From Nageia nagi (Eukaryota; Plantae; Pinophyta), in contig JBITNC010000001.1 in assembly GCA_050084985.1 (NCBI GenBank), positions 202,120,001-202,184,000 of the forward strand: a stretch of 64,000 nt of DNA, written 5' to 3'. Made by a program: the position numbers and the translations under genes. The notes beneath the pieces were generated by a model. The model did no database searches and was not told the origin of the DNA. It worked only from the letters and a program-made list of their open reading frames with translations. Below are positions 23,156 through 51,100 of this stretch, piece after piece (position 1 is the stretch's first letter; the number at the start of each line of letters is the position of its first letter).

Positions 23156-23189
23156 GTAGGAATATGACTTATCTCCCTTTTCAACCCTT

Positions 23190-28683: not shown

Positions 28684-31600
28684 GACAAAATGCAGTTAAG
28701 CAATGACAATTGGGCATGAAGCTTGAAAAGTCTGCTGAAGGAAAACCTGATTGAATTAGGGAAGTTTGGAAAGGACCTGTTGCCTGAGGCCCGCATCAAG
28801 AATGGCCTTGCGAACATTAGGGACACAGATTGGCAACGCACAAACCCCATCAAGATGCTAGAGAAAGTAGTCACAATGCCTCCAGAGACCCTATCCACCG
28901 ATGTGATCTATCATTCAAGATTGTATATAGCTGCCATGATACCTTTCGCAGTAACATTCCCAAAGTTGTGTTGTGAAGTGGCCAAGTTATGTGACGTGGG
29001 GAAAAGGACTCTTCGAGACAGTAAGGATGAAGTGATTATGAGATTCACCGCAAAAGGTGTGGAAGATGCATTCAGATGGGAGGGAGATGGCATTGAGTGC
29101 ATTGAAGAAGACTCCATCGTCTTCTATGAGTCCTTGAAGGGGCAAGGAAACTTGATCAGAGAGTGGCTTCTTCCTAGTGCTAGAGAGCTCAAAGGAAATA
29201 CCCTATTGAACGCCAAGAGAACATACTTTCACCTTACAATGTCCAAGTTGATTACTCTAATGGCTAGTGTGTTGGGTAAAGAAGATGACACCAAGTTCAG
29301 AAAGGAGTTCTTCACTTTCATATATTTGATAGGGCAAGGGAAGAAGATCAGATGGGGATGGACAATAAGTGAGGTCTTGAAGAACCAAATATCATCTTGA
29401 GACCTGTGAGACTAGTAAGAGTTTCTATATGAACTCTTATTTGGTATATTTGTTGTTGGCCGATAAGAATAGACCATCGACACATGGGGACATCAGCTTG
29501 ATAGGTAAGGCATGTATTCCTATATGGAGGTGTTACTAGAAATGGTTTGTGGGCAGCAAGTACTCTCACTTCTATATGAAGACCGACGGATGGGAGTATG
29601 GGATACTTAAAGAAATTAAGGAAGAGTTACAAGTAAAGAGAATTTCCAATGCAGCCATTGATGCCCTCGATTTTTTACTTACACCACTCCAAGTACACTT
29701 ATATCAGGGTGTTCGGATCACAAATGCCTCCACACATGCTTCCGTGGTATGTGAGTAACAAAATTATCTTGTTGGAATTTTGCTACAAATTATCATTTTT
29801 GCATGAGCAAGTATGGAAGAAGAAGGTTGCCATTATTACTCTACCCATCATTGTTGGAGAGTATGCATGTGCTTTATGGGTGGATTTAGATAACATCAAG
29901 ACTGAGTTAGCCCACTACGGATTCAAGCAACTCCTTAGAGCTGAAAGTTATGACCTAGAAGGAAGAATAGTTGCATTCATGGATAAATTCAAAAGATCCC
30001 CATATGTGCATAAGCCTCTTGGTTTGGAAGAAAAATTCAGGGACATGACAAGGTTAGAAGACATCAAGAGGACACAAGGAGCAATCACAAGGGAGAATAA
30101 GAGGGGAACTCAGCCAAGACATACTGAAGAACCCAAGGAAGGAAGGAAGCAATAGTCACCTCTAACTATTCCATCGAGCTCTAAAGCCATGGGAGAATTG
30201 TTTTCCTCTTTGAAGAGAAGACAAGGTCACACAGGGAAATATGCTACCATGGGAGGATCTAAACAATCAATGAGGATGTTGCACATACCATTTAGTCACA
30301 AGTGAAAGACATTGAGCCAAGTAGCTCAATACCAACTTGGGGGATTGAATTGAGGGGAGCTAGCCAGAGAAAGATTTTTAAGGAGAATCCCCCAAAACCC
30401 AAGGGTAGAATGCTTGGAGTGATCAAGCTCCGGATACAGTCTTGAAAGCCCTGAATGGAACGATGACAGCATGGGAGAGCAAGGTCCTATTGAAGATGAG
30501 GTCATGGGGGAACTCAGGATAATGTGGTAGAGGAAGAACCCACAGTGGGAGATGTTTAAATAGATGACAATTCAATGGAAATACTCCCTTAGATAAAGAA
30601 GACAACCTCCAAACCCATGCCTTCAGAGTCAAATTCGCAGAGAGGTCCGAGAAAGACAACCACACCTCAAGCCCAAGTCAACATTTGACATCAGAAGAGC
30701 CCTCCCAATGTATTTAGGCAAACATCCCTTCAGCTGGAAGATCAGATGAATGAAGAAGCGACAATTGAACAACACAAAAAATAGAGGCAGGATTTGGGGA
30801 AAGAGATAGTTTCAATTGTCTGACTGTCCAATGCCAATGATGGCGGGGAGGACTTTAGCTTTTTGGACAAATACCTCCAACACTTGGATACCCATTGAGT
30901 AGATGATAGTGATGAAGAGAATAGAGAGGCCTCTGAAGGAGAATGTTCCCAGCCTAGAGATTCGAGGATCTTTGCCCAATTAAAAGGCTCTTCCAGTGTG
31001 ATCATTAAAGCAACCACCCATAAGAAAAAGCCTCAAGGTACGCAATATTGGAAAATTCAGATGCAAGAGATCGAAGTAGGCCCTATTAGTTTGGAGGGGC
31101 ATGAATTGAACATCAATGAAAGTGCTTCTGCCCTAAGAGAAGAAGGAGCAAAGAAGGATCTAGAAATTTGAAGGTTAAAGAAAGAGTTGATCAACAAGAG
31201 CAATTTCTGCAAGGAAATTGAGGTAGCCCAAATGTAGCCAAACGACATCAAGAGGTAAACCTCTCTGAACATGGGTATAGCACTTATGAAGGAGGAGTTT
31301 AAGAAGGACATCATGGAGGTGGTAAAGGAGTTGTCATAGAAGATTGCAACTTTCATTCAAGAAGAAGCCAAGATTCAAGTGAAGATTGAGAAAATCCTAT
31401 AGCTAATCGAGATAAGGATCCCTTATTAGGATGATATGGATGAGATCCGTTAGAAGGTGGAGGACAATTCAGTGTCACAGGAATATTGCCTTAACTTCAC
31501 CTTCTACTTCGATTGGATCAAGGGAGCCATTGGTAAATGCCACGACTTAGTTAAGAATGTATCTAAGGAGAAAGAAGATATTAAAACCCAAATGGTTGAG

Positions 31601-31813
31601 TTCATGTTTGGGGTCATCCTGCTAGATGAGTTTGGGGTACTGTTGGTATCGATTTCTTTCCTACCTTGCAGTACCGCAACAGAGGCAAGCTTAGCAAGAG
31701 AAAAAAGCCTCACTAACATATATAGGTTGTTGAGATGCTTTTCTTTCCTAGATGGGACACTTTGAATATCGTGCGCGGAACTTAGGAGATCCCAAGCAAC
31801 ATAGTTGGGAATG
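28681..31813 (+). pseudogene. Decayed long ORF of copy D
   Basis: LLKENLIE..LPEARIK..DTDW..AAMIPFAV, FYMNSYLVYLLL, YIRVFGS..LPWYVSNKIILLEF and YFDWIK match the A ORF. Confidence 0.85.
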
Positions 31814-32359
31814 TGTTACCAATTCCCCCGTTTGAAAAGGACTGTGTACCTCCAAGGCTCTTGTTGAAACACCCTACCCAACGACCCCAACATTGTGATG
31901 TTGTAAGGTATGTCCACCAGGTGTGTTTCTGAATAGGGATAGATAAATAAAAGTGCAGTATCCCTCTTTGGAATCAGCCTCAATGGAATGGAATGAAAGG
32001 TATGTAGTCTGTTAACCAATGATGTTTTATTCTTTGATGTATAGAGTTTGTTCGAAACTTTTGTGTGTGTACTTAACAATCATATTTGGGTATGAAAGCA
32101 TAAAGAAAGTGTAAAGGCAATACTGTAAAAGGTGAAGCACAACACCTTGGACAAAGAAAGGATACTTGGTTGGATATGGGTTTTGTTGTGCCTACACAAC
32201 ACCACCCCAAAATTTTTTGCATTTCAAGGACTCTCAAGAAACATAAAGGAAGAAAAGATTGTATGAAATCTATCTAAAAAGATGCATACCTTTTGGAGGA
32301 TGTTGGAAACATGTCGAGTTTGCATTTTCGCAGCAGTAGTGTCATTTCTCATGTACTTT

Positions 32360-33875
32360 TCTCCTGTCGCATGTTTTCCATAGAGTGCTTTTGCACCTCC
32401 TTTCAACCATCCAACCATGCATCCTTGTCTTTGTCGTTTACATCATTCAGCTTGAAGGGCTTCTGAGGGCCTCTCTTTTTGCATTTCACCCATCTTGCGT
32501 CTTGTTTGTCATCATGTTGTCGAAAAATGCATGAAAAAGGCATGTTTTCAGCCTATTGCATGTTTTTGAGGGAGTCCTTTTGCACCCTCTGGAGAAGGTG
32601 CAACTGGGCTGGGTTTTTTGCACTCCTCTCAAAGGATGCGACCAGTGTTTCAGACTTAGCATCATTTTTGCAGATGTCTCATGCATTGGAGTGAGTCCTT
32701 TTGCACTCCTCAGGAACCACGCGATCAGGAATTTGACACTTTGCATATTTTTGAAGCCTCAAAGGCTATTGCATGCATTTCATCAAGTCCTTTTGCACTC
32801 CTGTCAAAGGGTGGGACCAGCTTGGAGAACACTTAGCCAAATTTCGGAGCCTCAAGGCTTGCCGCAAGGATGGAGATGAGTCCTTTTGCACTCATCCAAA
32901 ACCATGTGACTAGGGAAAACAGAAAGAAATAAGCTAAGTGTTGGACGTTAGTGACAAGTGGAAGTCCATGCATTGGACCTCATCCTACGCCTGTCCCATG
33001 GTGACACGTGTCCCTCCTTGAAGGCTATAAAAGGGAAGTCACCCCCCTTCATTTTAGCTTGCAAAATTGGGGAGGTCCAGAGCATGGGGAGATAGGAGAA
33101 AAAGAGCACCCCTTCTTGGACATGTGACCAAGGACATCCTACACCTTTTTCGAAGTTTTTTTCGAATATTTAGACCTTGGGAAGCGTGCCAAGAGCTGGG
33201 TGCAAGGATTCAAGCATGTGCTTTGGGCACCCATCCAAAAGGATGCGACAAGGGAGATAAGAGCTCAAGTATGTTGGAAAATTGGCTAAGCCCCCCTGGT
33301 CCCACTTTCTAGTTGCACCATTCCTATCTAGTCCTTTTGCACCTCCCACCATGCATACGACCTTGTTTGTAAACTGTCTATTGGACCTTTTTAGCAAGCT
33401 GGTAAGAGACTAACACTTGGCCTAGGAGAAAACTTATAAATATCACCCTCTCCTTGAGCATTTCATACCTCATTTTCATCTCTCTTCTTGGTCGCATCAT
33501 TTTCCATACATGCTTTAGCATCCATCCCAAAACATGCAACCAAGGAAGGAACATTAGAAGACATTGCACTCATTTCAAGGCATGGTCGCATCATTTTTCA
33601 CATGATCAAGCACCCACTCCGGAACGTGCGACCAAGATAGAAGGGAGATTCAGGGATGTTGTACATCTAGTTAGGCTCTTTTGGCCAAGGCATTTCAAGT
33701 TCACCCTTGAACCTAGTCGCATCATTTTTTATGCATGCTTGAGGCACTTATTCAAAAACATGCGACCAACTTTCGAGTGAAGAGTGTTGTTCAGAAAATT
33801 GACTAAGTGTCCCTAGGCCTAGATGCACGCTTTCTTGGCTGTGCTTCTGCACTCATTCATAACTGTGTGCCTGGA
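32360..33875. repeat. Array of bipartite GCAC-N13-TGCGACC motifs in A3 5' region
   Basis: About a dozen degenerate units with a constant 13-nt spacer in the cases counted, e.g. GCAC-tcctctcaaagga-TGCGACC and GCAC-ttattcaaaaaca-TGCGACC. Confidence 0.8.
33003..33442 (+). promoter_or_regulatory. Two TATA boxes and a G-box upstream of the A3 ORF
   Basis: GACACGTGTC at 33003, TATAAAA at 33026, TATAAATA at 33435. Equivalent motifs in A1 (~9110, ~8740) and A2 (~23945, ~23555). Confidence 0.55.
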
Positions 33876-36800
33876 CTAGTCAGACATCTGGAGCTGAGGA
33901 AAGAGTAGGGTAGTGTCCTCCATGGCTTCAAGCACCAAAGTACCTTCGTTGAAGGCTAGGAAGACCTAGAGCCAGTTGTTTGAGAGGCATGTGACTAAAA
34001 ACCAGATGACTCGACTTTTGAGGGAGAGTTTGATAGAGTTTCAGCTAAAGAGCAGGCCAGAGCTCCCCGAGGCCAAATTGAAAGGGAAATATATTTTTGT
34101 TGGTGACACTGATTGGGGTGACTTGGACCCAATCATGACCTTGGCCTCTACAACCTCTCTTAGCAAGGAGAACCTGTCTAGGGAACTTATCCACACATGC
34201 TACTTGTTCAATGCCGCCATGATACCGTTTGCAGTACCTTTTCCCGACTTGTGCAGTGAAGTGGCAAAGAAGTGTGATTTCAGCAAGAGAGTGCTACAGG
34301 ATACGGAGGGCAATGTAATCATGGACTTCACCCCTGCTGGTATTAAAGCAACTTTTGGCTAGAAATGTTATGGGGATGACTATACATTGGTCCATTCGGA
34401 GGAGTTTCATGACTCCACTTCCCGACATGGAGACTATATTAGACCTTGGTTGCTTGAGGAATTTCAAGACCTTCAGGGGCAAAGGTTGATCAGTGCGCAA
34501 AAAGAAGAATTTCTACTAGTGGTGGCAAAATTGATCACCTTATTATCAAGAGTAACCGGTCAAGAGAGTGATGCCAAGTACCGGAGGGGGTTCACAAGAT
34601 TTATGGTTGCAATCAGTTCGGGGAGGTCCATTCGGTGGGCAGGGGTTATTAGTGATGCCCTGTGCTACCAGTTGTCTTTGTTTGGCTCCTCGAAGAGATT
34701 TTACATGAACTCTTACCTGGTGTACCTGTTACTGCAAGGCAAGGTCAGATCCAAGGAGCTGGCTGATGAGAGGTACTTGGGAGAGAAGAACACCCCCATG
34801 TGGAGGGCATACCAGAAATGGTGGTGCCAAAATAAATGAGTATTTTTATGAAAAAACTGATGCCTGGGAATATGATATCTACAAGGATATCAAGGGAGAG
34901 TCCGTGGTGAAGAGGGTTTCTGATGCTACCATCCAGGCTATTCGCGTGCATGCAAACCTTTTTTTGCAAGACGTTGACTTCACCTACATCAGAGTTTATG
35001 GCTTGAAGGAGCAGCCCATGCTCCTGCCCAGGTATGTTAGCGACAGGTTGGTCCTCATCGAGTTTGCTAGGCAGCTCTTGTTCCTGAAGGAGAAGGTCTG
35101 GAAGAAGAAAAATGCCACCATCAACTTGCTTATTTCTATATCTGGATATGTGTGCCAGACTTGGGTGGAGGCACCACACATACGAAAGGAGCTACAATAG
35201 TATAACTTCTTCTGGGAAGTTGCTGCTAGGAACTATGATCTCGAGGGGATGATTGCTCGTTTCTATGACACTGCTTTTCATCGGCCCATTCCATTTCCTC
35301 ACAAGTCTTTGGGGGTTGAAGAAAGGTATAGGAATGTGCAAAATGAAGGGGAAATTGCGCGCATCACAGCTCATTTGAGTAAAAAGAAGGCTTCTCTTCA
35401 GGCAGAGAAGCCTCCTCTAAGGCCTCGAACTATGAAACCCCGATCTAAGGAGGCCACTTTGAAGATCATATCTCCTACCCACACAATGTCCTCACCAAAA
35501 GAGAAGCCCTTGCTTTCTGCAAGAAAAAGGCAAGAGGCCCCGAGAGAGCCTCTTCCTGGGCCCAACAAGCGTACTGTGTTGGAAGTTGACTTTAAAGATG
35601 CTGGGTATTGTGCTCTCCCTTTAGATGTGCTGGACGATGTGATAAACGCATGTGGGAGTGACTCCCCCATGGAAGCGATTCCTTCCAGATCGACCCATTC
35701 TCCTAGACAAAGAGGGAAAGTTCCCCCCTTACAGCAAAGTTCTAGCAGCTCCGAAACCTCTTCCTCTTCTTCCGATGAAGAAGCTGATGGAAACCCTGAC
35801 CGTACGACTGAAGACTTTGCAGAAGAGTCAGAGAGCTAGAGAGAAGAAGAAGAGGGAGGTGATGCCAATGCTGCCCATTCACCTCAACCAGAAGACATAG
35901 CCATTGGTGCTTCAACACCTAATGAGACGGAAGTAGAAACCATTCCGGAAGATGAGATAGTGGACGTAGGCATTTATGATGATGACATCCAGATACTTGG
36001 CCAGAAGTGCGCTAGAGAGGTGGCTGCCTCCAAATCCTCTCCTGCCGAACCCAAGAAAAGGTCTCCCTCGCATAAAATCTCTACTAAGAGGAGTCATGAT
36101 AAATCTCCCTAGCTTTGAAATATAGGCATATCTCTAGGCGGCAGTGGAGGAGATGAAGAGGACAAAGGAGAGATAGAAGAACAAAAGAAGAAGAGGAGGC
36201 AGGAAGAGCATCAAGGAAAGGAGATGGCGGTAGTTCCAACTACCCTAGCAAAGGAGGCCAAGAAAGTTGATAAAGGAAGGTTGTTGGTTCAAAGGTTTCC
36301 CTTTCAACCAGCGATCGAACAACCAGATCTTGATCTAGATGCATGGTTTAGAGCCCTCAACATGATTATGACTCACGATGAAGATATAGACCATGACTTG
36401 GGGTATGAGGACGAGGAAGAAGAACTTTCGGATGGGGAGAAAATTCGGAGGGTGGACACTTTTATCTCCACCTCTCGAAAGGAGATCTTTATAAGCATTG
36501 CTACTCCAAGGAGAAGCATCTTCAGAGGGCCGAGGGTTGTCTTATCGAAACTTTCAAGATGCCAGTCAAATTGGGGTTAAAGGCTAGGAAACACATTGTT
36601 ACCCAGAATGTTGCAGTCATGGAACAGGAAGGCTATGAAGCTAAAAGGGAAGTGAAGAAATTAAAGAAGGAGCTCACAGCCAATCAAAAAATTATAAAGG
36701 TGTTCCAGAAAATCAGCACCACTCCCTTACATTTGTAAAAACAAACTTCCTTCCATGAGGGATGGGAACTCATGAAGGTGTAGCTCAAGAATGAGATGGT

Positions 36801-37122
36801 GGAGATCATCGAGAGATTTTCTTCATGCATTTACAAGATCCTAGCCGAGGGATTTGAGATTAGGGATCTTAGAACTCAAATTACTACTCACCTCGGCCAG
36901 TTGGATAGTTACCTACCCAATGTCTTCCACTTGCAGCACACTTTCGCCGATAACCCCAAGAAATTCGTCTACTGCCATGAGTTCACCTATCACCACGATT
37001 GGTTGAAGCACACACTCGAGAAATGCAATGCTGTCCTCAAAGTAAAGATCCCCTTGTGAAAGGAGGTGGAGGAGCAAATGAGTGAATATCTTTATCACCT
37101 AAAATTCCAAGGGAAGGATAAT

Positions 37123-37534
37123 TGTTAGGATCCCACATCCTAACATTTTAGTGTTAGTATTAGTATTTTAATTAAATTGTCGGCCTATATTGTAAACCGT
37201 AATATTGTGATTGTAAGGGCGGGGCCCGATTTTGCATTACTATTAGGATTAGGGTTAGTATATTATAAATAGGTAGAAGTGTGTGGAGAAATGCATCTTG
37301 AACATTATTTTTTACTTTTGGAGTTGTAAGGAGGTAGCCCCCTGGAAGCGGCCTTTGATTCTGTTACTATTTAGTAAAATCCTATCCTTATCTACTTATT
37401 GTTGTTATTTCGTGTTCTATTTATCAGCGCATGCTCTGTTATTTCCACTAGATTAGTTGTCATTTTTCTATTTCAAATCGATTTTCGTTACATTTCTGCA
37501 ACATTTCCCTTTTCATATTTGTAGCATCGTAACA
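37123..37534 (+). repeat. 5' LTR
   Basis: TGTTAGGATCCC...CGTAACA; about 21 differences from the 3' LTR by eye (~95% identity). Confidence 0.95.
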
Positions 37535-37536
37535 TT

Positions 37537-37548
37537 TGGTATCAGAGC
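37537..37548 (+). promoter_or_regulatory. Primer binding site, tRNA-iMet
   Basis: TGGTATCAGAGC 2 nt after the LTR. Confidence 0.92.
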
Positions 37549-38302
37549 TCTTTCAAGGGCCATTTTGCTATAGGAAAACAATTTTTTTTTTTCTTAGAGG
37601 TCTAAGCTAGAAACCTTGTACCGGGGGTTTTAAAATATCCAAGAGGATCTGTCGTTTTTGGCTAAGCACACTTGCCCATAAAGCTGTGTGTAGTGAGGTG
37701 CAAAAAACTCTACACCAATACCCAGGCCTCAGACAGAACCCTACACGGAATCGGACTCCTCGTATCGAAAGGTATATCGAAGACTATCTAGGCTATAAAT
37801 GGAAACTAGGTAGGAAGCTGTGTCGATCGTCTATAAACTGTAGTGCACCAGTAAGTGCCGTTGGAAAGTTACTTGTCATAGAAGCCATCTCCACAACCTC
37901 TTTCCTTGCGAAAGTTGGATAGGAGTGTTTAAACAAGCCTACAGAGCAAATAATGCTTACCCTAGAATCATTCTTTCACACAAAAAACCTTGATTCGGGA
38001 AGCAGAATGTATGACATGCAGTTTTTCAGAGCCGCCAAAAATAGCAGTTCAGAGGTGGCAAAAACTTCAGAGCTAAATAACTAAAAATCTGTACTGTTTC
38101 AGCAGTTGTTAACAAAAGTAGACAGACCCTCTTATGTAAAAAGTCTAGGAGTCCGAAAATCATCATCGGAAGACCTAGCCCATTGTGATCGTCTTTTCGA
38201 GCTGATCGTTTTGATATATTACACCCATACAGTTCTTTCGGGCACTTTCTAAAAATAGTAGTTTTTAAAAATAGCAGTTTCTAGAAATAACAGTTTCCAG
38301 AA

Positions 38303-41300
38303 ATGGCACCTGAGACAAGATCCCTAATAGCAGCACAAGCTGATCCTACCATGATGACATTTCAAACTATGATCCAACAAATGGCAGATATAACAGTACA
38401 TTCAGGGCAGAAATCCAACAAATACAGACCCAAATACAAACCCTTGACAGTAAATGTGACAGTGTCCAACTAAGTCTCAGTCATACCAACAATGCATCCA
38501 GTTCACAACAATCAGGGCAATCAGGAAATCCATAGGGGTATCATCATAACTTTCAGGGCCAACAAGGTGGTTTCATTCTTCTCCGCACAACCAAATTGGA
38601 TTTTCCCCGATTTGATAGAGATGATCCCATTGGTTGGATTTATAAGTCCGGACAGTATTTCACATTGAACCAAATTCCAGAAGATTTGAAGGTGCGCATG
38701 GCAACTTTTCATTTGGACCGTGAGGCTCTCCAATGGCACCAGTGGTACTCAAAAACGCATCCGGCTCCTTCATAGGATGAATTTACTCAACAATTATTGA
38801 TCAGTTTTGGTCCTAGTGACTATGAAGATTTCACAGGGGCATGGACCAAGTTATGTCAAACCACAACAGTCAAAGAATACCAAAATCTTTTTGAGAAATT
38901 GGCAAATCACATAGAGAGGTTGGACGATGCATTTTTCACAAGTTGGTCTATCAGTGGATTAAAGGAAGAAATTAAACCAGAGGTCAAAATGTTTAATCCC
39001 AAAACTATGATGGATGCAATTGCTTTGGCAAAGCTCGATGAAGATAAAGCCAGTGCTCATCAACGAAATGTAAGACCCCCATTCACAAAAACGCATTATA
39101 TTTCCCATTCCTCTGATAACACTAGTGCCCCACCACCAAATTGCACAATGCAAACTAAGAAGTTGACGTGGGAGGAAATGGAAGAGCATCAAAAGAAGGG
39201 TTTGTGCTATAATTGTAATGAGAAATTTGTTTGTGATCATCGTTGTACTTAACAAAAGTTATATTTGCTTGACGCTTATGCTCTTAGCGAGAAGGAATAT
39301 GAGAGTGCATCCGAAGAGGCTACAGAGGAAATTCCAAATGAGGAGGCCCTGGTTATCTCTTACAGTGCATTGGTAGGAATTACTACCCCGCAAACTATGA
39401 AGGTCAAACGGTTTGTTAAAAAGTGTCCTCTCATAATATTGTTGGATTCGGGAACTACTCATAATTTCATTGATCCACAGGTGGCTAAGGTTGCTGATTG
39501 TTACATCCACCCTACAAATAATTTTGAGGTTATGGTTGGTAATGGAGGAAAAATAGATGTAAAGGCACATGTCAAAATGTCAAACTGAGCATGGACCACT
39601 ATACTTCAAAAAGCGACATGTACAATTTACCACTTGGGGGATGTGATATAGTTTTGGGGGTACAATGGCTGAGGACTTTGGGCACCGTGTAGTGAAATTT
39701 TGCAAAGCTATGGATGACCTTTAAGATAGACAAACAAGAGCATACTCTCAGGGGATTACAGGTGGACCTGTACAAATTGTGAGCTCAGTTGCTGATTGTT
39801 ACATCCACCCTACAAATAATTTTGAGGTTATGGTTGGTAATGGAGGAAAAATAGATGTAAAGGCACATGTCAAAATGTCAAACTGAGCATGGACCACTAT
39901 ACTTCAAAAAGCGACATGTACAATTTACCACTTGGGGGATGTGATATAGTTTTGGGGGTACAATGGCTGAGGACTTTGGGCACCGTGTAGTGAAATTTTG
40001 CAAAGCTATGGATGACCTTCAAGATAGACAAACAAGAGCATACTCTCAGGGGATTACAGGTGGACCTGTACAAATTGTGAGCTCACATCGCATTGAAAAG
40101 ATCCTACGAAAAACTGGAAAAGGGATGCTGGCATAGTTATACTCTTTATCAATCACCGAATCTGAAGTCACAGAGCCTAAGGATCTACAACCCATCTTAA
40201 GTAAGCATGCAAGTGCCTTTGAGGAACCAATGGGCTTACCACCCCAGCGATCACATGATTATGCTATCTAGTTGGTGTCGGGAAGTCACCCACCAAACAT
40301 TCGTCCTTATCGGTATCTTTGTTTACAAAAAAAATGAAATTGAAAAATTGGTTAAGGAATTGTTGGATGCAGGAGTAATCCGACCTAGTGTAAGCCCATA
40401 TTCTTCTCCAATTATATTGATTCGTAAAAAAGATGGTTCATGGCGTATGTAAGTGGATTTCAGGGCCCTCAACAAAATTACCATCAAGGACGAATTTCCC
40501 ATACCAATCATTGATGAATTATTGGATGAATTGCATGGGGCAAGATATTTTTCCAAGTTGGACCTGCGATCTGGGTATCATCAAGTCCGCCTCAAGGAGG
40601 AGGATATACCAAAAATTGCATTTCGCACCCATGAGGGCCATTATGAGTTCTTGGTCATGCCTTTTGGCCTCACAAATGCTCCATCCACATTTCAAAGTTT
40701 AATGAATCAGGTGTTTCGTTCATTCCTCAGGAAGTTCATTTTAGTTTTCTTTGATGATATCTTGATTTACGGTAAGACATGGCAAGAACATATGGCACAT
40801 GTTGACCAAACCTTACAAATTTTGAAGGAACACCAGCTGTATGCAAAAAAATCAAAATGTTCATTCGGCAAGAGGGAAATTGACTACTTAGGCCATATTA
40901 TATCCGAAGAGGGAGTTAAGGTGGATCCACAAAAGATTATTGACATGCAGAACTAGTCTATTCTTACATCTTTGAAAAGTCTGAGGATTCTTGGGGTTGA
41001 TAGGCTATTATAGTAAATTTGTGAAGGATTATGGTAAGATTGCAGCACCTCTAATGATGTTGTTGAAAAATAATGCATTCCAATGGTCTCCTCAAGCTGA
41101 GGTAGCTTTCCTTAAGCTCAAGGAGGTGATGTGTACCACCTTGGTATTAGCAATGCTAGATTTTTCTAAAACCTTTGTGATAGAAAATGATGCTTGTGGA
41201 GTAGGAATCTGGGTAGTATTGATGCAGGAGGGGCGTCCCTTGGCGTTCACTAGTAGAGCACTCTCTGGTAAAAATTTGGGTAAATCCACTTATGAAAAAG

Positions 41301-42990
41301 AAATGCTTGCCATCATTCATGCAGTTCAATGTTGGAGACCATATCTCATTGGTCGCCATTTCATCATCCTCATGGATCATCACAGTTTGAAATTTTTCAT
41401 TGAGCAACACATTTCTACGCCTGAGCAACAAAAATGCGTGACCAAACTATTGGCGTATGATTATGAGATAGTATACCGTAAAGGTAAAGAGAATGTGGTT
41501 GCCGATGCCCTGTCCAAAAAATTTGAAGCTCAAGTAGCACTGCAAGCTCTTTCGTCTCCTATTCCTCAATGGTTGGATAAAGTTAAACAAGAGTGGGCAA
41601 AGGATAGCTTCACCCAATAATTGTTAAAACAAATCACTCGAGACCCCACGAGTAAACCACACCACACATGGCATGATGGTATTTTGAGATTCAAAGGTCG
41701 AATTTTGTTACTGTCTCATTCAAAATGTAAATCAGAAATACTTGCCGAATTGCATTCCACACCCATATCAGGACATGACAGATTTTTGAAAACTTATAAG
41801 CGGGTGGCACGGTCGTTCTATTGGGTAGGTATGAAATTGGATATCAAGCAGTTTGTGGTAGCTTGTGATGTGTGTCAACGACAAAAAGGTGAGACAGTGG
41901 GTACTTCGGGACTCCTTCAACCTCTTCCCATTCCTACTTGTACATGGACCGATATCTCAATGGATTTCAGTGAAGGCCTTCCTAAATCCAATGGTAAATC
42001 AGTTATTCTAGTGATGGTTGATCGGTTATCCAAATATGCTCATTTTGGTTCATTGGCTCATCCCTACAAGGTAGTGACAGTGGCACAATTATTCCTAGAT
42101 ACAATTTTTAAACTACATGGCATGCCAGAGACGATTGTCAGTGATCGTAATCCCACTTTTGCAAGCCATTTTTGGCAAGAGTTTTTTAAGTTGCAAGGTA
42201 CCCAACTAAACATGAGCTCAGCATATCATCCGCAAACTGATGGTCAGACTGAAATTGTCAACATGTTTGGAAACATATTTATGTTGTTTTGCTTCAGCAC
42301 AACTTGTGCATTAGGTATGATGACTTCTCTTGGCCGAGTGGTGGTATAATACATCTTATCATTCTGCCAGCAAGATGACCCCATATGAAGTAGTGTATGG
42401 TCAAGCTCCAACAGTCACCTCGTATGTTGCAGGTACCAGTAAAGTTCAGGCAGTTGACTGCGCTTTATTTATTGGGGATGATATTCTTCGTTTGTTCAAG
42501 GATAACCTTCAGATAGCCCAACACTGTATGAAACAACAGGCTAATCAGCAACGTATGGAAAGGGAGTTCCAGGTAGATGAGATGGTCTTTCTAAGGTTGC
42601 AACCTTATCGCCAGAAATCCTTAAAAGTAAAAGGCCCTCAAAAATTGGCCCCAAAGTTTTATGGTCCCTAAAAAGTGTTACAGCGCATTGGCCCAGCTGC
42701 ATACAAATTGAAGCTTCCTGCTTCTTCCAAGATTCACCCAGTGTTTCATGTCTCTTTGTCTAAAAAAAGTGGTTGGATCGGAGGTTCGGGTTCATACACA
42801 ATTACCTGAGTTGGCGGAGGATGGATCAATGTAGTTGTACTTGAGGCAGTTTTGGATCAACGTTCATGGTAGCTTTGTAATCACTCCATCACAGAAGTCC
42901 TTGTGCAATGGCAAGGCATGGTACCAGAAGATGCAACATGGGAAATACTTCATCAGCTACAGCAACAATTTCCACACTTCAAGCTTTGAG
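38303..42990 (+). pseudogene. gag-pol polyprotein remnant
   Basis: KGLCYNCNEKF gag end, LLDSGTTHNF protease, [16 protein letters not shown] RNase H, ISMDFSEGLP and AYHPQTDGQTE integrase, FYGP, EVLVQWQG..EDATWE chromodomain. Multiple stops and frameshifts. Confidence 0.92.
39490..40085 (+). repeat. 298-bp near-exact tandem duplication inside the protease region
   Basis: 39490-39787 and 39788-40085; one mismatch seen (GACCTTTAAG / GACCTTCAAG). Confidence 0.9.
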
Positions 42991-43019
42991 GACAAAGCTT
43001 CATGCCAAGAGGGGTGGCA

Positions 43020-43431
43020 TGTTAGGATCCCACATACTAACATTTTAGTGTTAGTATTAGTATTTTAATTAAATTGTCGGCCTATATTGTAAACCGTAAT
43101 ATTGTGATTGTAAGGGCGGGGCTTGATTTTGCATTACTATTAGGGTTAGGGTTAGTATATTATAAATAGGTAGAAGTGTGTGGAGAAATGCATCTTGAAC
43201 ATTATTTTTCACTTTTGGAGTTGTAAGGAGGTAGCCTCCTCGAAGCGGCCTATGATTGTGTTACTATTCAGTAAAATCCTATCCTTATTTGCTTATTGTT
43301 GCTATTTCGTGTTCTATTTATCAGCACATGCTCTGTTATTTCCACTAGATTAGTTGTCATTTTCATGTTTCAAATCGATATTCGTTACATTTCTGCAATA
43401 TTTCCCGTTTCATATTTGTAGCATTGTAACA
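43020..43431 (+). repeat. 3' LTR
   Basis: Direct repeat of 37123-37534, preceded by AAGAGGGGTGGCA. Confidence 0.95.
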
Positions 43432-45546
43432 ATAATAATGTTCGAAAGAAGGAAGTAGTATTGGCAGAGGCCCAGAATCTGATCCAGTAGCATCTTGAGG
43501 TCGAGGATCTAAACTTGTTGAAGGTAGGACTTCTTATCGTGCACGAGAGGCTGATGGTCATCTGGAGGTACTAGATGCAGGCCACATTCAAGAAGATTGA
43601 GGATTACTTCCGGCAGAATGGTAGTACCATTGGTATGATCTCTAGGGGTGTGCAGAAGACCGTGGTGTTCTTGTGGGAGACCATCGAATCCTATGGTCTC
43701 ACCAGCGAGGAGTGGAAGTCCGCCTGTACCGAATCAGATCTGGCCTAGATCTAATTCACCTGCAGGCTTCCTCAGTGGTACCTTTTTTTAATGTTAAATG
43801 CATACAGGTTGCTTGTTAGACTTTACTTTGATTTGACTGGTGTAGGGATGAGGTTTTGCTCCCGCTAGATCAGATTTGTCAGATTCATTCATGACTCTGG
43901 CCGGTGCAAGGATGAGGTTTTGCTTCCACCGGTTTTGATGTCAAACCTTTTTAGTTGATTTATTGCATATTTGATTTTATGTTGGATAGAATAGATGTAG
44001 AGTAGATGCATTGCGGCTGTGGCATCTATATTTTGTTAGCTTTAGATGCCACTTACATAGTCTTGCGTGATGATATTTGATTTTGTATCGATGTGTGTTG
44101 CGTGTGTGCATGCCGTATCAGATTTGATGCCTTTAAGGCATCACTTCTAATGGCCTATTTATACCCCATTAGGGCCATTTAGAAAAGGGATTTTACATAT
44201 TGGATTTTGCCTGAGGAATTTTTGATATGATCTTGTACTATTTTTGCATGGAACTTTGCACATAATGAAAACATCATATATTGGAGTTCTTGCATCTTGA
44301 GATTGAGGCTACTGAGTTCATTTGTACAATCATTTTTAGCCTTTGCATGTCATAAGATTCACATTCCATTGCATAGAAGATTGCTGCATAAGGGATTCTA
44401 TGCATGTTTGTTATTGAAAATCAATATGAATGCGTTTTCGTTTAGAGGAATAAAATCATAAAGTTATACTGTGAGGAACATCATTTGTGGGATTATGCAT
44501 ATCTGAATGGTTCTTTTTATGAACTACATATTGATTATTTTGTGAAAGAGTTTGATCCTTCTTTGCATAGTTTGCACGCAAGTGGATATATTTTGAGGCT
44601 TACAGCTTGTCTTTATGTCATTTGGTTAGGTTACTGCACTTATGCTCTCATCCCATCTTTACCCTTTCCATTGAGTCTTCCATAAAGACCCTACAGCTTC
44701 CTGCTCTCGTCTAGTAGTGATTTGAGCATATTTGCTATTTGTTGCTCGGCTTGATAGTGAGTGTATTGACCTTAATGAATTTGGGAATGACCTTCCGAGA
44801 CACTGTATCCTTGGTGACGTCCTCATAGATCCTTTCCTTTCCTTGCATTCCTTTGCATTTATCCTTGTGTTCTTTCCCTGCTTTTGTGATCTTTCTTTGC
44901 TTTTGTTCACATTTGCAGTCTTTCCTCATTAAGGAAAGAAATTCAGACGCGAGTTTCCCTTGTATACGGTTAACAACATGCATCTCTGACTCCTGAGCCA
45001 TCAAGACCATATTCCATGTGAGCGCTTGGGGTAACCAATCCTTTCAGGTGGGAACAAATAACGCTGTTTTCTCCAAGTCTTGTGCATGTTTTGAGCGAGG
45101 AAAGAAAAACATACCAACAGGTTTGAGTTTCATTGACGGGAGAGTTTATCTCTTCCGAATCAGTTAAGGACTCTTCATCCAATTCATCCAACTTTGCAAG
45201 CATACAATGCAACGTTCGAATTGCTTCAAAGAGGAGCGGGGAGGAATGCCAATTGTTGGCTCTCTACGAATAGGACCAATGTAATTGAATGGAAAACGAG
45301 TTGTTCTCAGAGTGGGAGGATCATGGTTTGGATAAAGGACCTAACAAGATGTGAAATAAGTAGAAACTAACATAGAATACCCAATTAACTTACATGTTAA
45401 AGATCAAGCAACAAACATAGGTAAGCTTCAAGTACATTTTAAAGTTTTCAGAGATAACTTCCTTAAAGCTCGAGAGCTTTCAAAGAAATAAAACGAAAGT
45501 ACACAAACCCACTATGAGTGCCCTCAAAGAATCAATCCATAACATC

Positions 45547-45652
45547 AATATGAAAAGTGTCAAACTCAAGTCTTTGCATTAACCACCTTGTATTTGATCA
45601 AATATGAAAAGTGTCAAACTCAAGTCTTTGCATTAACCACCTTGTATTTGAT
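45547..45652. repeat. 54-bp tandem duplication
   Basis: AATATGAAAAGTGTCAAACTCAAGTCTTTGCATTAACCACCTTGTATTTGAT x2. Confidence 0.85.
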
Positions 45653-45967
45653 TTTGGAAAAAAAGGTGCCAAGATTTACAATAAGCTCTCAATTATCAAA
45701 ATAGCTCTCAAGTGTTTGCTTCAAAATGAAGTCCTTACAAAAATGAGACCCTTGGTCTTTTACTTATAGAGTTTTTGGAAACCCTAAAAGTGACTTTTGA
45801 AACCTTAGAAATGAGTTTCAAAACCTTAACCCTAATTGTAACACTAACAACTATTTACAAGCTAATTGAAAATGCTAATTAAGATTACAATTGGACTTAG
45901 CGGAAATCCACTAAGTTGGTCAAATATTTGGCTTATATATCAAAAATTTGCCAAAATAGACCTCTTT

Positions 45968-48164
45968 CTATTCTAGTGATTGTGGGAAGATGACTTGCAT
46001 GTTTGTGACGATTTTGGCTTCAAAATCATCTCCTATGAATGCTTCTACGTTCCTGATGGCACGGTGGATTGTCTGGACAACTCTTTCATTTAATAGCAAG
46101 TGCTCTAGGATGGCCTTATTGGTTTTGACCATTTCCTTGCACTAATCAGCCAATCTCATCCCTCCTGTCATCTATTTTCTTGTCTTTAGGCTGTGTGGAT
46201 CCTCAGGACACATGCTCTTTTGGAATAGTGGCATGGATCATTGTCATTACTATCATATACTCCTTAATGTTGCCGTTTTCTTCAAACAAGGGCACTGATG
46301 ATGGCTTTAAGTTGGGCTCTGGTGTGTATGAAGTCAGTGGAATTGGCTTTGATGTAGAACATATAATCATACAAGTGGAACCTATCTATGCAAAAATCTA
46401 GCACGAAAGGATGGTGGGTTGCCCTTCTCCGTAGGTCGAACATTGTAGGTTACCCACTCTTCCACCTGATGATTAATTGGTCTATTTTCTCTGCGTGAGA
46501 ATGTGACCCCTCCTCAATATAAAAATTTACCATGCTTGAATGGAGTGCTTTGATAGCCCCGATAAGGTCCTTGGTCCATCCTTGCTTTAGAGCAATGATT
46601 CTAGTATTTAAGTCAACCTACTTTTTGATGTCTTCAACTGTCAAATTAGTAGCCTTGACTTCTTTGTCGATCATTTCCTGATTCGTCACTTTCTTCTTCA
46701 GTTGCAAGATCTCTAGCTTTAATAAGGTACCAGATTCCCTCAATGCTCGTGCATTTGTGATGATGTTGTGCTCCATTCCCAATGGGCCAACGATCTCTGC
46801 AAGGGTCTCTTCTGTTTCAACTGTGAGGGCAAACTTTTCGGTATTGGCTTTGTTCTTTCTGGAGTAGAACTTTTCCTTGTAGGTGACTTTACCTGTAGTG
46901 GTGGTGAGAGTATCAATCTATTGAAGTTCTTCGTTTTCATCTTCAGAATTTTCTCCTTTGCAAGGGTGATTTGAACTCAAATTAGCCATCACTGTAGCCA
47001 TATCGAAGCGGGGTTCCATGGGTTGTTTTCTATAGGGAACCATCTCTCCGCCTTCGATGATTTTGACTGCATGCTCTACTTGTCTTCTTTTTCTCCTCTG
47101 TTCTTCATTTTCTCCCTCATCCTCTTGATTGCCACCATCTCCCCCTGAAGATGATGCCATTGTCGTAGGCCTTGAAGTACCCTTTTGTGTTAATGTTGTC
47201 GTAGTCCTCCGAGACAGTGGTGTTTGTGACACCTGTTTCCGAGGTGTGGATTTTGGGGTACCTGCTCTTGCTGTTTGCTGTACAATCATATCAACTAAGA
47301 GATTGTCCTCATTAAGGATCTCTAGTGAATGATCAGTTTTGACCCTATCAAAGGTAATATCTTGGTTTATCTCCATGTCAGTGTTGATGACTGCAGTAAG
47401 ATCCATCTCCTCATTAGTTTCTAACGAATCACTCGGTCCATATTTGTTGGAATTGGATGATGATGTGCTAGGGTTTTGATTCAGGCACATACCACTCCAA
47501 TTCAAACCATTTGGGAGGTTTATCTTTTTCTGCAAGTGTTTTAATGGTTGAGTGATCAGGCCTGTTCTTCTGAGGTCTAGGATTTCATTCGTCGTAGCCA
47601 TGACAGTTGTTTCAATGGTTTGTTCGGGAATGCTATTAGTAGCATACTGTTCGTTTTGTCCTTGAGCCAGTGTTGTTGAAGGGGATACTATGGGAATAAC
47701 ATACCCGTGGCTCGGGGGTACGGTGACCCATGCATTGGCTCTTAACCTGGTAGCTTCTTCGGCTTTGTGCTATTTTTGTTCTTCTTTCAGCTCCTTGTGA
47801 ATTCATTGAACCTGTAGGGCATCTTGAATGTTCCTGTACCTTTCAATGCTACCAAGGGACTGGTGTGGATATGATGAGATCCATGTCTTGTAGAAAAATG
47901 CATCAATCACTTCATCGGGGTCATAGTGATCCTCAGCTACTTCGGTTGGGAATTCATAGAACGCTAGCTCTTGTTTAATCATGTCAATCTGTTGCCAGTG
48001 GTGCATTCATAATTCCCGATGACAATAGGTAATTGGTAAGTGTTCATCGTCTTTTTTACCCATACCTTGTGCATGTTCAGCAAGTGTCTTGAAAATTCTA
48101 TGAGGATGATGCAATCACTTGCGTAACGGGGTAGCTTATTAGGGGCTTCTTTGGAGCCATAGAC
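45968..48164 (-). pseudogene. C-terminal two-thirds of the family ORF (copy B)
   Basis: Pieces 47803..48006 (IKQELAFYEF..YDPDEVIDAF..YPHQSLG.IERYRN) and 46918..47601. Linker motif DMEINQ..DHSLEIL shared with copy E (STEIDQ..DSSLEVL). Confidence 0.75.
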
Positions 48165-51100
48165 TGTGACGTTCCATTTGGACCATTGACAAAATGTGTC
48201 ATGGTCACTTTGTAATCTAGTGTTTTGTTTATGATCATGTTGTACATGTGTAACTCAAGCAAAAGCTTATGGTCTGCGGACCCCACTGTGAGCTCAATAA
48301 TGGGATGTCTCCCCTTGAGTAGTGTTTGTTAACTTGTAATGGGTTATCCTGGATTGTGGGAAGCCCTAGATAGGCATGAGTCTTGTATAGTCCAGAGGTG
48401 CATATAGGAGCATACCAGCATTGGGAGGGCCCCACATCCCCCACGTTGGCTTATGAGGTCACCTGGATCCCTACGTCAGCTTGAGGAGGCCCATTAGACC
48501 CCACGTCAGCCTTGAGGGCCTTTATGGCCCTCATGTTGGCACACTAGGTCCATGGGATCCCCACGTTAGCATACTGGGCCAATATGACCCCCACATTGGC
48601 ATGGTTGACCCGTTGACCCCAACGTTGGAATAGACTTGGCTTGGGATGATAACGAGGTATGATGGATAGACACGTGAGGCTATATGTTGAGGATGGAACT
48701 CCATGAGAAGGTTAGCTATTGATTATACTTCTATATTGAACCCGATCGGGCATACAAGTCTTGGCGGTGCTGAGCATTATTCCTAGACAACATCTACAGG
48801 AGTGACAGGGTTGGGAGCCTGGCATTCTACAACTTAGATGGGTCACCTAGTCCATTCAGTGGTATTCCGAGGAAAAGCTTCTACCTTCAGTGGTTGCCAA
48901 GGTTCGAGGAGGCTCCTTTGCAGGAAAAGATTCGGAGTCTGAGGGAGTGAGTCTTTCCTGTGGTGTTCGGCTTGTACAAGGGTTTGGATCCCTAGATCTG
49001 GATGTTGAGATCCTCATTGTACTCCATTGTTATTCCATGATATAATACAACTTGTGTCTCTCTCATCATTGTGTTGTTCCATTTGTATGCATGCGTTGTG
49101 ATATATTGGTGTTGGAGGCTTGTTCTGGCTTAGTATTGTGGTGTGGCCCCATCGCGGGTATTTCTTTGTTGTCCATTGTTGTTGTGTTGCATTCGTGTGG
49201 TTAGCTTAGTGCTGGAGAAGACCTGGGGGATGATGTCAAAATTTGTAGGATCATTGTTTGGTGTGGTGTGTAGTCTGGAAGACCTAGGAGGGCCATGTTG
49301 GTGCATTGAGGTGTTTGTATGGCCTAGAGGGCAATCGTTGGGTGCTTGAGGGTTATAGAAGCCCTAGCTTGGTTTGTGTTTGCTGAGGGTGATTTTAGAT
49401 CGTCACGAGTGGTATCAGAGCCAAGATCTTGCCAGCCTGAGGGAATGGAGGGTCGATCTACAGTTATTGTGAAGAAGTCGGAATACGGTCCGAAGGTGTT
49501 TCACCATTTGCTCCAGAGGTTTGAGGAGGAAAAGATCCCAATGGAAGAAAGGAGAAATCTCATTTGGTATCTTGGCGAAAGACATGCAAATAGAATGTGT
49601 AAGAAGAAGTGGAGGCCACGTCTTCCTAGACCAGATCTAGCGCACAAGACACCACCACAGATTGAGATCTTACTCCAGATCTATCGTGGTATGGCTGAAG
49701 GTTTTCAAAAGGACGTCACATTCCATGTGTATCAAGACTTGCTTGGTTATGGAGTGAATGCATGGAATGGGAACTTTGTTGGGGAAGAGGAGGTGAACCC
49801 AGCCCTAACGGCCGATTTGAAGGGTGGTAATAAGGAGGAAGATGCCCAGGATCTGAAGGAGGAGGATTTGGACGAAGGTATCCGAGAAGGAGCAGCTTTG
49901 AGCTTGAAAAAGAAAGCAGAATGGAAGATATCCGTTCAATCTAGTGCCACACATAATCGATTGGAGAAGGTCACGAAAGTGCTTTCGGTAAGAAGCATGG
50001 ATGCCACAATCCGGAAGAAGGATAATGAATGGGTTTGCATCTTCACACTATTCAAACTAGGGCCAACGTTGGACACAAGGAGGTTTCGAAGTAGCTGCTA
50101 GAGATCCAAGCCATTTTGGATCACTATCCAGACATCTTTGGGGAGATCCCTAAAGGTTTACCACCATCGAGGGGTTGTGAGCACGTGGTGGAGGTAGAGG
50201 ATGGCACAAAGCCTGTCATAATCACGCCATATGGACATCCCAAAACCTATAAAGATGAGATCGAAAAGGCCATCAAGGAGTTATTGGACATGGGGTTCAT
50301 CAGACCCAACACTAGTCCTTTTGCATCCTCGGTAGTTTTGGTGAAGAAGGATGGGACCATGAGGATGTGTATTGACTATTGACTGCTAAACAAGAAAACT
50401 ATCAAGAATCAATATCCGATCCCAAGGGTAGACGAACTCACAGATGAGTTACATGGAGCCAAGTACTTCTCCAAGATTGATCTAATGTCAAGGTATCATC
50501 AGATGCGGATGAAGGAGGAGGACATACACAAGACAACATTTTGTTGCCACTTTGAGTTCATGGTGATGCATTCAGATTGACCAATGCTCCTGCTACCTTC
50601 TAGTCAGCGATGAATCAAGTGTTTCGGGAGAATTTGAGGAAGCACGTCTTAGTATTCTTTGATGACATATTGATCTACAACAAGACGTGGGATAAGCATC
50701 TTAGGCATCTGGATAGTGTGTTGAGGGTATTGCAGATGCAACGGTTCTATGCCAAGCTGTCCAAATGTGAGTTCGGAATGTTGGAGATCTTGTATCTAGG
50801 GCATGCAATAAGCCACGAAGGAGTGAGGGTGGACGAACAAAAGATCTTTGCTATTTTGGAATGGCCGATCCCCACAACCCTCACACAGCTGAGAGGATTC
50901 CTTGGGTTATGCAACTATTATCAGAGTTTCTTCAGGGTTTTTCTCACTTGGTGGCACCCCTCATGTAGCTCACCAAGAAGGATGCCTTTGTTTGGAGTGA
51001 TGAGGCACAGGAGGCTTTCAGGAAGCTCAAAGAAGTGATGTGCACATGTCCCTGTTTGGCCATACCCAACTTTTCAGCCCCATTCAGAATGGAGTGTGAT

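What the first reader, a model, noticed from the sequence alone, without database searches (positions are those of the whole stretch)
32184..45119. Giant solo-LTR-shaped elements carrying a ~1170-codon non-gag/pol gene
Seen: A1 (3903-9898), A2 (14011-24861) and A3 (32184-45119) each have TGTTG...CAACA ends and their own 5-bp TSD (CT(A/G)TC, GTATT, GGTTT). I saw no internal direct repeats, PBS, RT or integrase of their own, yet each holds one long ORF. The ORF lies upstream of the conserved LTR-type TATA (44156), i.e. in what would be U3. Knowledge: TG..CA plus a 5-bp TSD is the retroviral-type integrase signature. Extra ORFs of plant Tat/Ogre/Athila/SIRE elements normally sit between the LTRs and would be lost on solo-LTR formation; the MMTV sag ORF in U3 is a loose analogy. 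Inference: these are either ~6.6-kb coding LTRs of a very large retrotransposon, so the gene is present twice per element and survives in every solo LTR, or a single-unit element mobilised in trans.
Basis: partly seen in the sequence, partly recalled or inferred. Interest (0 to 1): 0.92.

Follow-up and report, generated by a model that had tools for sequence, protein, structure and literature searches.

The report
Giant LTRs carrying an anti-silencing-like gene
These 6.6-kb plant repeats have the ends and insertion footprint of retrotransposon terminal repeats and hold a decayed 1,170-codon gene; they are likely lone terminal repeats left by a large retrotransposon, and the gene is predicted to resemble a known anti-silencing DNA-binding protein, which would let every leftover repeat keep such a gene.

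Summary
Observation confirmed with corrections. A1-A3 have TGTTG..CAACA ends, 5-bp TSDs (two exact, one 4/5) and no terminal direct repeats. A2 and A3 are 6.6 kb once nested elements are removed. The ORF is ~1,170 codons but broken in every copy (A1 lacks the first ~230 codons), and it evolved under purifying selection (dN/dS 0.10-0.13). It has no Pfam match. New here: predicted models of its N-terminal domain rank VANC21, a transposon anti-silencing DNA-binding protein, first of 48,161 PDB chains (Z 8.4 for a homolog, 5.5 for A3; middling scores). The noncoding 5' part carries a subfamily-specific repeat array, as VANC targets do. Several relatives share the layout, some without the ORF, and one LTR start lies 175 bp after a Gypsy integrase. 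Best reading (0.6): solo LTRs of a likely gymnosperm Tat/Athila-type element whose U3 absorbed the extra gene. No paired copy was seen, no genome was available, and 0 of 8 starts show a PPT and 0 of 7 ends a PBS, so a single unit moved in trans (0.2) stays open. New variant of a known kind.

The parts
32184..45119 (+). A3: LTR-shaped unit, about 6.6 kb net of the nested element, TGTTG...CAACA; inserted in the U5-like end of element C
   Evidence: empty-site contigs joining 32178/32183 to 45141 in runs X1, X2, X3
32179..32183 (+). left TSD GGTTT (right copy 45120-45124)
32184..32210 (+). terminal hairpin TGTTGTG-loop-CACAACA followed by a C tract; shared by A1-A5 and B, degenerate in E
32389..33360 (+). 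degenerate repeat array (about 93-bp spacing) with TTTTGCAC...TGCGAC motifs; candidate binding sites of the encoded protein (inferred)
   Evidence: TTTTGCAC 7 and TGCGAC 8 in the 1,738-bp 5' noncoding part, shuffle maxima 1 and 1
33023..33035 (+). TATA-like motif about 900 bp upstream of the ORF; likely internal promoter of the gene
   Evidence: a similar motif lies upstream of the B ORF at 27945; function untested
33922..43748 (+). decayed ~1,170-codon ORF, split by the nested Gypsy
33922..34836 (+). N-terminal folded domain, predicted VANC21-like
   Evidence: Z 5.5, rmsd 5.4, 209 aligned; homolog P0036 (Z 8.4, rmsd 4.5, 236 aligned)
35300..36430 (+). less conserved Pro/Ser/acidic linker of the ORF
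   Evidence: dN/dS 0.23-0.25; translation
37123..43431 (+). nested full-length Gypsy element (not part of the unit)
   Evidence: contigs joining 37117 to 43432 in X1 and X3
44154..44167 (+). LTR-type TATA-like motif, 966 bp from the 3' end
44170..45119 (+). T-rich R/U5-like region ending TACCAACA
   Evidence: AT skew -0.20
3903..9898 (-). A1: diverged copy, ORF lacks its N-terminus, different (111-bp) repeat array
14011..24861 (-). A2: copy with nested A5
14653..18866 (-). A5: 4.2-kb ORF-less relative with the same start, tandem repeats, TATA at 15568, its own TSD
56208..56628 (-). A4: first 421 bp of an A-type unit (83% to the A2 start)
56805..57580 (-). 3' part of a Gypsy integrase, same strand as A4, ending about 175 bp before the A4 start
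   Evidence: rve E 1.3e-4, below the curated cut-off
26889..31800 (+). B: distant relative with the hairpin start, repeats, upstream TATA and a paralogous ORF (about 40% identical)
1..3763 (+). D: 3' part of a distant relative: ORF paralog, TATA at 2857, end CCCAACA
45120..48170 (-). C: distant relative with ORF paralog and TATA at 45769; its end continues at 32183-31803 past the A3 insertion

Best explanation
The units have integrase-type ends, 5-bp target duplications and a decayed 1,170-codon gene, and are likely solo LTRs of a large non-chromovirus (Tat/Athila-type) Gypsy retrotransposon whose U3 carries a gene predicted to encode a VANC/PMD-like DNA-binding protein that would protect the element from silencing. 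Shown: ends, TSDs, layout (hairpin start, repeat array, TATA, ORF, second TATA, T-rich tail), purifying selection on the ORF, and several sister families with and without the ORF. Inferred: (1) U3 grew upstream over the usual pol-to-3'LTR region, taking in the repeats, a promoter and the extra ORF, which leaves the integrase only about 175 bp from the LTR start; (2) the gene is then copied into both LTRs at each reverse transcription and transcribed from its own internal promoter; (3) the protein binds the subfamily-specific motifs in the LTR's own repeat array and keeps them unmethylated, as VANC does in VANDAL transposons; (4) recombination between two 6.6-kb LTRs, perhaps eased by that open chromatin, removes gag-pol and leaves solo LTRs that keep the gene and its targets until they decay. 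The solo-LTR part is about 0.65 likely; the anti-silencing function, given the fold hint, about 0.45.
For: TG...CA ends with 5-bp TSDs in A1, A2, A3 and A5. TATA-like motif about 900-1,030 bp from the 3' end followed by a T-rich tail in A1-A3, A5, C and D, in the sense of the ORF where there is one. A5 has the same start, a TATA and a TSD but no ORF, so the frame is an LTR and the gene is optional. A4 starts about 175 bp after a same-strand integrase; one X1 contig (depth 3.4) joins the LTR start side (56637) to the post-integrase side (56739) across a differing spacer. F, an A5-like LTR end, is followed by a same-strand gag remnant (Retrotrans_gag E 7e-5). dN/dS against A3: 0.13 (A2, 1,097 codons), 0.10 (A1, 867), 0.12 (L060, 830). 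VANC21 (9lnk) ranks first of 48,161 chains for both models, next hits Z 2.8 and 3.7. VANC targets form family-specific tandem repeats in noncoding regions (PMC5735166 passages); A2/A3 carry TGCGAC 11 and 8 times, A1, B, E and F 0 times, A5 once. PMD and VANC share a fold (PMC13547354 and bioRxiv 2024.09.27.615353 passages); Tat elements carry PMD-coiled-coil extra ORFs. REXdb lists forward extra ORFs in 23% (5') and 26% (3') of 27 TatII elements (supplement), the symmetry that an LTR-borne ORF would give.
Against: No paired copy, PBS or PPT was seen: 0 of 8 starts show a PPT shared with another copy or resembling the nested Gypsy's, and 0 of 7 ends a PBS (window plus L060; A1's flank is purine-rich, 10 of 12, but ends in its TSD). 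A4, the one start beside an integrase, has no PPT (4 of 12 purines) and lies in a rearranged block, so it may be an insertion. Conifers studied have few solo LTRs (1 per 4 to 5.6 complete elements in spruces) and no link to LTR length (PMC5751070 passages); at that ratio about 45% of ends would adjoin an internal region. The VANC scores are middling (the tool warns that Z under 8 may be a common arrangement), identity is 7%, Foldseek found nothing at E 0.001 or better, and the two models share alignment members. Ustyantsev et al. saw no extra ORF in Tat lineage II. The motifs were picked after looking, and any tandem array enriches its own words. The host group is inferred, not shown.
Confidence: 0.6

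Rival explanations
1. Each unit is a complete single element with no paired-LTR form; it is inserted by a Gypsy-type integrase supplied in trans, and its gene protects or mobilises it.
For: Only single forms seen: 0 of 8 starts with a PPT, 0 of 7 ends with a PBS. Loose ends after 45119 are diverse (15 contigs in X4, agreement 0.4). All families share a terminal hairpin with a C tract that reads as G tract plus TGTTG...CAACA on the other strand. Solo LTRs are rare in studied conifers.
Against: No known route copies a unit lacking R repeats and PBS/PPT (established retroelement biology). Only 5 bp of terminal inverted repeat, and no transposase or integrase match in the ORF. The TATA/U5 layout is that of an LTR; integrase and gag remnants adjoin A4 and F. 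Contigs collapse repeats, so diverse loose ends do not exclude a PBS junction.
Confidence: 0.2
2. Solo coding LTRs as in the best explanation, but the protein has another role (RNA packaging, nuclear import, integration targeting or host transcription control), and the VANC likeness is chance or only a shared ancestry.
For: Z 5.5 and 8.4 with rmsd 4.5-5.4 and 7% identity; no Pfam DUF1985 or PMD hit in 44 aligned members; the last 800 or so residues were not folded from the window's own copy; functions of plant extra ORFs are unknown (PMC7264820, part 1 of 3).
Against: VANC21 stands clear of all other rows in both searches and covers most of the domain; the repeat array differs by subfamily.
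Confidence: 0.15
3. The units are deletion or recombination remnants of ordinary elements (extra ORF between pol and a normal 1-1.4-kb 3' LTR), and the shared ends are coincidence.
For: The last 1.37 kb looks like a normal-sized LTR; extra ORFs normally sit before the 3' LTR; the window is heavily nested and rearranged.
Against: Four copies have TSDs at the same two ends, and independent subfamilies (dS above 1) start at the same hairpin; random deletions would not do this.
Confidence: 0.05

Closest known systems
Tat/Ogre/Athila (OTA) Gypsy elements with extra ORFs, incl. gymnosperm TatII/TatIII (PMC6317226, PMC4408406)
   Same: 5-bp TSD, very large LTRs, tandem arrays, an extra ORF with a PMD-type N-terminal domain and a helical C-terminal part; a non-chromodomain-looking integrase tail nearby (lineage recalled from motifs, not tested by a tree).
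   Different: Here the ORF lies inside the LTR-shaped unit, in sense, with its own TATA. TatIII's PMD ORF is antisense and internal. No Pfam PMD, Transposase_28 or ATHILA ORF-1 hit.
VANC anti-silencing proteins of VANDAL Mutator-like transposons (PMC5735166; PDB 9lnk)
   Same: Predicted fold of the N-terminal domain; family-specific tandem motifs in the element's noncoding part.
   Different: Carried by an LTR-type unit, not a MULE; 7% identity; no DUF1985 hit; VANC is described as dicot-specific; binding and demethylation untested.
Plant mobile domain proteins (PMD-A of retrotransposons; MAIN/MAIL1)
   Same: Reported to share the VANC fold; PMD-A is retrotransposon-borne.
   Different: No PF10536 hit; no PMD structure appeared among the listed fold matches.
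MMTV sag and HIV nef in U3 (recalled, no call)
   Same: A protein-coding frame in U3 that is present in each LTR or survives in the LTR.
   Different: About 200-320 codons, vertebrate retroviruses, unrelated function; here about 1,170 codons.

Membership tests
solo LTR of an LTR retrotransposon | TG...CA ends flanked by a 4-6-bp TSD | tested here: met
solo LTR of an LTR retrotransposon | no internal domain, PBS or PPT at the flanks; no terminal direct repeats within | tested here: met
solo LTR of an LTR retrotransposon | U3-R-U5 layout with a promoter | tested here: inconclusive
   TATA-like motif and T-rich tail present; no transcript data
solo LTR of an LTR retrotransposon | same sequence found paired around PBS-gag-pol-PPT elsewhere in the genome | not testable with these tools
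   no genome held; indirect hints at A4 and F only
OTA / TatII Gypsy | RT/INT phylogeny and aRH between PR and RT | not testable with these tools
   no pol region securely linked; only an integrase tail at 56805-57580
OTA / TatII Gypsy | no chromodomain or aRH after the integrase | tested here: inconclusive
   the integrase ends at 56805 and noncoding DNA follows, but its link to A4 is uncertain
VANC | DUF1985 domain by sequence profile | tested here: not met
   no Pfam hit; no PDB sequence hit with two profiles
VANC | VANC21-like fold | tested here: inconclusive
   top rank, Z 8.4 (rmsd 4.5, 236 aligned) and 5.5 (rmsd 5.4, 209 aligned)
VANC | encoded by a VANDAL Mutator-like DNA transposon | tested here: not met
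   TG...CA ends, 5-bp TSD, no transposase match
VANC | binds short motifs arrayed in the element's noncoding repeats and removes methylation | not testable with these tools
   motif arrays present; binding needs experiments
PMD / Transposase_28 / ATHILA ORF-1 extra ORFs | Pfam domain match | tested here: not met
gag or DDE transposase/integrase | Pfam capsid, gag, rve or transposase match in the ORF | tested here: not met
   none in the 15 ORF and paralog fragments (7 from A3) nor in 44 aligned members, while the same scan found gag/RT/INT in nested elements
Ginger-type DNA transposon | long terminal inverted repeats and integrase-like transposase (features recalled; the GingerRoot paper seen only as a listing) | tested here: not met
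   only 5 bp are inverted between the ends; no rve match in the ORF

The most novel reading that the evidence does not exclude
These are self-contained LTR-shaped elements with no paired-LTR form: a hairpin-capped unit that borrows a Gypsy integrase and encodes its own VANC-like anti-silencing factor next to that factor's target array, with ORF-less relatives (A5, E, F) as non-autonomous riders. The milder novel reading, a coding LTR that leaves a complete anti-silencing cassette in every solo LTR, is about 0.3 likely.
Probability: 0.15. Interest if true: 0.9.

Novelty: new variant of a known kind. Interest (0 to 1): 0.62.

Why it matters
If true, a retrotransposon in a likely gymnosperm genome carries a VANC-like anti-silencing gene inside its LTR, so the host's main removal route, solo-LTR formation, would not delete the gene or its target sites. 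It would extend sequence-specific anti-silencing from eudicot DNA transposons to retrotransposons, give a testable function to a large unnamed ORF family (80 hits at E 0.001 or better; none of 10 clusters looked up has an informative name), and bear on why such genomes retain so much retroelement DNA. It would also show a blind spot: LTR finders were capped at 6,000 bp (REXdb) or 3,000 bp per LTR and 15 kb spacing (one of the pipelines in PMC13477047), so 6.6-kb LTRs and their 20-kb elements would be missed.

Tried and rejected
No own genome. Metagenome scan with the 21-nt unit end: 70 loci, 1 real by BLAST (L060), 69 chance, mostly gut bacteria; L060 is a 5'-truncated copy without a PBS and its record could not be extended. 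Viral contigs: ORF fragment, LTR start and integrase gave nothing; prokaryote genomes nothing. Word-indexed protein searches: 0, 1 and 4 hits, unnamed. ESM Atlas: no usable hit for P0036 or the B ORF. Foldseek against PDB and BFVD: none at E 0.001 or better. No capsid, integrase or PMD structure among the leading VIA rows; absence from the list excludes nothing. No RNA holder listed among 14 runs, which says nothing on expression. Summed contig depth in X1 was about 50-140 on the integrase and 260-1,015 on part of the A4 start; this is no copy number and is not used as evidence. The second joint at 56653-56741 may not reach into the LTR and is not counted. An antisense reading (G tract as PPT plus an 18-bp mini-LTR) was considered and rejected: there is no matching mini-LTR or PBS at the other end, only TGGTAT, 6 nt. 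A flip-flop hairpin was rejected: the loops keep one orientation. The coiled-coil check was crude and weak. Pfam did not name the three short host exons. Earlier findings of the scan: none. Literature searches that found no description of a plant LTR holding a long ORF or of this family; the library lacks most subscription papers, and Repbase was not available. The VANC21 structure paper and Sasaki 2022 are not held. REXdb Additional files 1 and 3 were too large to read and may show whether TatII extra ORFs lie inside LTRs.
Full report
What is there. The three units sit at the stated coordinates, with TGTTG...CAACA ends and 5-bp TSDs (two exact, A1 4 of 5). A3 reads on the plus strand, A1 and A2 on the minus strand. 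A3 contains a complete 6,309-bp Gypsy element with its own TSD, PBS and gag-pol; A2 contains a 4.2-kb relative, A5, with its own TSD. Without them both are about 6.6 kb. Contigs from public runs join across both A3 and the nested element, so both are insertions, and the unit is a repeat along its whole length in 4 of 4 runs laid. The first and last 1,500 bp of each unit share no similarity (3 of 3). No whole genome was available.

Anatomy, in the sense of the gene. A 7-bp hairpin and a C tract at the start; a degenerate repeat array; a TATA-like motif at 33023; the ORF from 33922 to 43748, 1,170 codons net; a second TATA-like motif at 44154 that is present once in each unit; and about 950 bp of T-rich sequence ending in TACCAACA. 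The ORF is broken in all copies: A3 has 11 premature stops and at least two frameshifts, and A1 lacks the first 230 or so codons. It was under purifying selection while the subfamilies diverged: dN/dS 0.13, 0.10 and 0.12 against A2, A1 and L060 over 1,097, 867 and 830 codons (synonymous sites are near saturation for A1 and L060, so those two ratios are rough).

It is a group of families. The window holds further relatives: B, C and D carry more distant paralogs of the ORF (30-59% identity in matched stretches); A5 has no ORF, and none was seen in the parts of E and F that the window holds. B, A4, A5 and E share the hairpin start; A5, C, D and F have a TATA box about 900-1,030 bp from the end where the end is preserved. 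One more A copy came from a metagenome collection (L060, 1 real of 70 matches). The units lie around exons of a plant-like host gene. A gymnosperm host is my inference from the nested-element-filled introns, the presence in air metagenomes and recalled motifs of this ORF family; no call names the organism.

Solo LTR or single unit. For an LTR: integrase-type ends and TSDs, the promoter and U5-like layout, ORF-less versions of the same frame, a Gypsy integrase ending about 175 bp before the A4 start on the same strand, one contig of run X1 that links these two sides across a differing spacer, and a gag remnant after the A5-like LTR end F. Against: no paired copy; 0 of 8 starts with a recognisable PPT and 0 of 7 ends with a PBS; A4 has no PPT and lies in a rearranged block. 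Spruces have about 1 solo LTR per 4 to 5.6 complete elements, with no effect of LTR length (PMC5751070, passages), although in angiosperms longer LTRs give more solos (passages). This family would need an unusually high solo ratio. I put solo LTR at about 0.65 and single unit at about 0.2, mainly because no known mechanism copies a unit without R repeats and primer sites.

What the gene is. Pfam found nothing in the window fragments, in 25 homologs or in 44 aligned members. An exhaustive HMMER search gave 80 relatives, mostly fragments; the 10 clusters looked up are unnamed or 'hypothetical'. AlphaFold2 gave usable models for the homolog P0036 (pLDDT 77.9; co-linear with A3 over 255 columns, E 7e-23) and for A3's first 305 codons read with X at two stops (pLDDT 73.4). 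Foldseek found nothing. Full structural alignment against 48,161 chains ranked VANC21 bound to DNA (9lnk) first both times: Z 8.4, rmsd 4.5, 236 aligned, next 2.8; Z 5.5, rmsd 5.4, 209 aligned, next 3.7. These are middling scores from two models that share alignment members, so this is a lead, not membership. It fits the literature: VANC shares its fold with plant mobile domain proteins (PMC13547354 and bioRxiv 2024.09.27.615353, passages), and Tat elements carry PMD-coiled-coil extra ORFs, in gymnosperm lineage III antisense and internal (PMC4408406, passages).

Likely mechanism. VANC binds short motifs that build up as family-specific tandem repeats in noncoding parts of its transposon and removes methylation there (PMC5735166, passages). 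The 5' noncoding part of A2 and A3 has TTTTGCAC 6 and 7 times and TGCGAC 11 and 8 times (shuffle maxima 2 or less), while A1, B, E and F have no TGCGAC and carry other arrays (motifs chosen after inspection). I infer that U3 expanded over the pol-to-LTR region and took in the array, a promoter and the extra ORF; that the protein binds the array and holds off silencing; and that recombination between the long LTRs leaves solo LTRs with gene and targets intact. All of these steps are inferred.

Comparison and novelty. Extra ORFs are described between pol and the 3' LTR or before gag (PMC7264820, part 1 of 3; PMC6317226, passages). REXdb reports LTRs up to about 5 kb and searched only to 6,000 bp. 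Its table lists forward extra ORFs at both the 5' (23%) and 3' (26%) side of 27 TatII elements (supplement file 5), which may be this arrangement unrecognised; the per-element files could not be read. Seven searches found no description of a plant LTR with a long ORF or of this family; Repbase and most subscription papers were not searchable. PMC11539532 and PMC12859917 (passages) added nothing on it. Verdict: a real and unusual feature, a new variant of a known kind, interest 0.62.

Noticed in passing
window 12570-13195 and 25180-25245 (+): Four short exons of a host gene with splice sites (one apparent GC donor at about 13194); A2 lies in the intron between the third and fourth. The peptides recall a plant Tim44-related mitochondrial protein (from memory; Pfam gave no hit for three exons).
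   Followed up: partly
window 37123-43431 (+): Nested full-length Gypsy with 412-bp LTRs (94.9%), tRNA-Met PBS, PPT, and a near-perfect 298-bp tandem duplication at 39490-40085 (99.7%), which may be recent or an assembly artefact.
   Followed up: partly
window 48165-53384 and 58163-59372: A second Gypsy family with 1.2-kb LTRs: one copy with PBS (49410) and pol, truncated in its 3' LTR, inserted in the C ORF; and an apparent solo LTR on the minus strand inside a gag remnant.
   Followed up: partly
window 55059-58040: Rearranged block: A5-like LTR end (+) cut about 180 bp before its terminus, then an inverted 1.37-kb piece (integrase tail, 175 bp, A-type LTR start), then a gag remnant (+).
   Followed up: partly
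window 14653-18866, 53385-56209, 61632-64000: ORF-less giant LTR-like relatives (A5, F, E) filled with degenerate 180-190-bp repeats; possible non-autonomous riders. A5 inserted into the 3' part of A2, A3 into the 3' part of C, and a similar element into the 3' part of the L060 copy: relatives appear to insert into each other's R/U5 region.
   Followed up: partly
window 26200-26890 (+): Sequence before B looks like a decayed LINE ORF1 (by eye, recalled motifs); B appears inserted in it.
   Followed up: no
window 10060-11250: Likely solo LTR of another family, with short matches to the 1.2-kb LTRs at 48852-48944 and 58589-58687 and to L060 2536-3208.
   Followed up: no
L060 3297-10021: 5'-truncated A-family copy closest to A1 (73.8% over 3.8 kb), with a 2.6-kb nested hairpin-start element; the DNA after its end looks like a LINE reverse transcriptase (by eye).
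   Followed up: partly
proteins P0036, P0067, P0083: Distant members of the ORF family (19-29% identity) show that it is broad and old; the second domain of P0036 (about residues 303-406) has no clear structural match and was not folded alone.
   Followed up: partly
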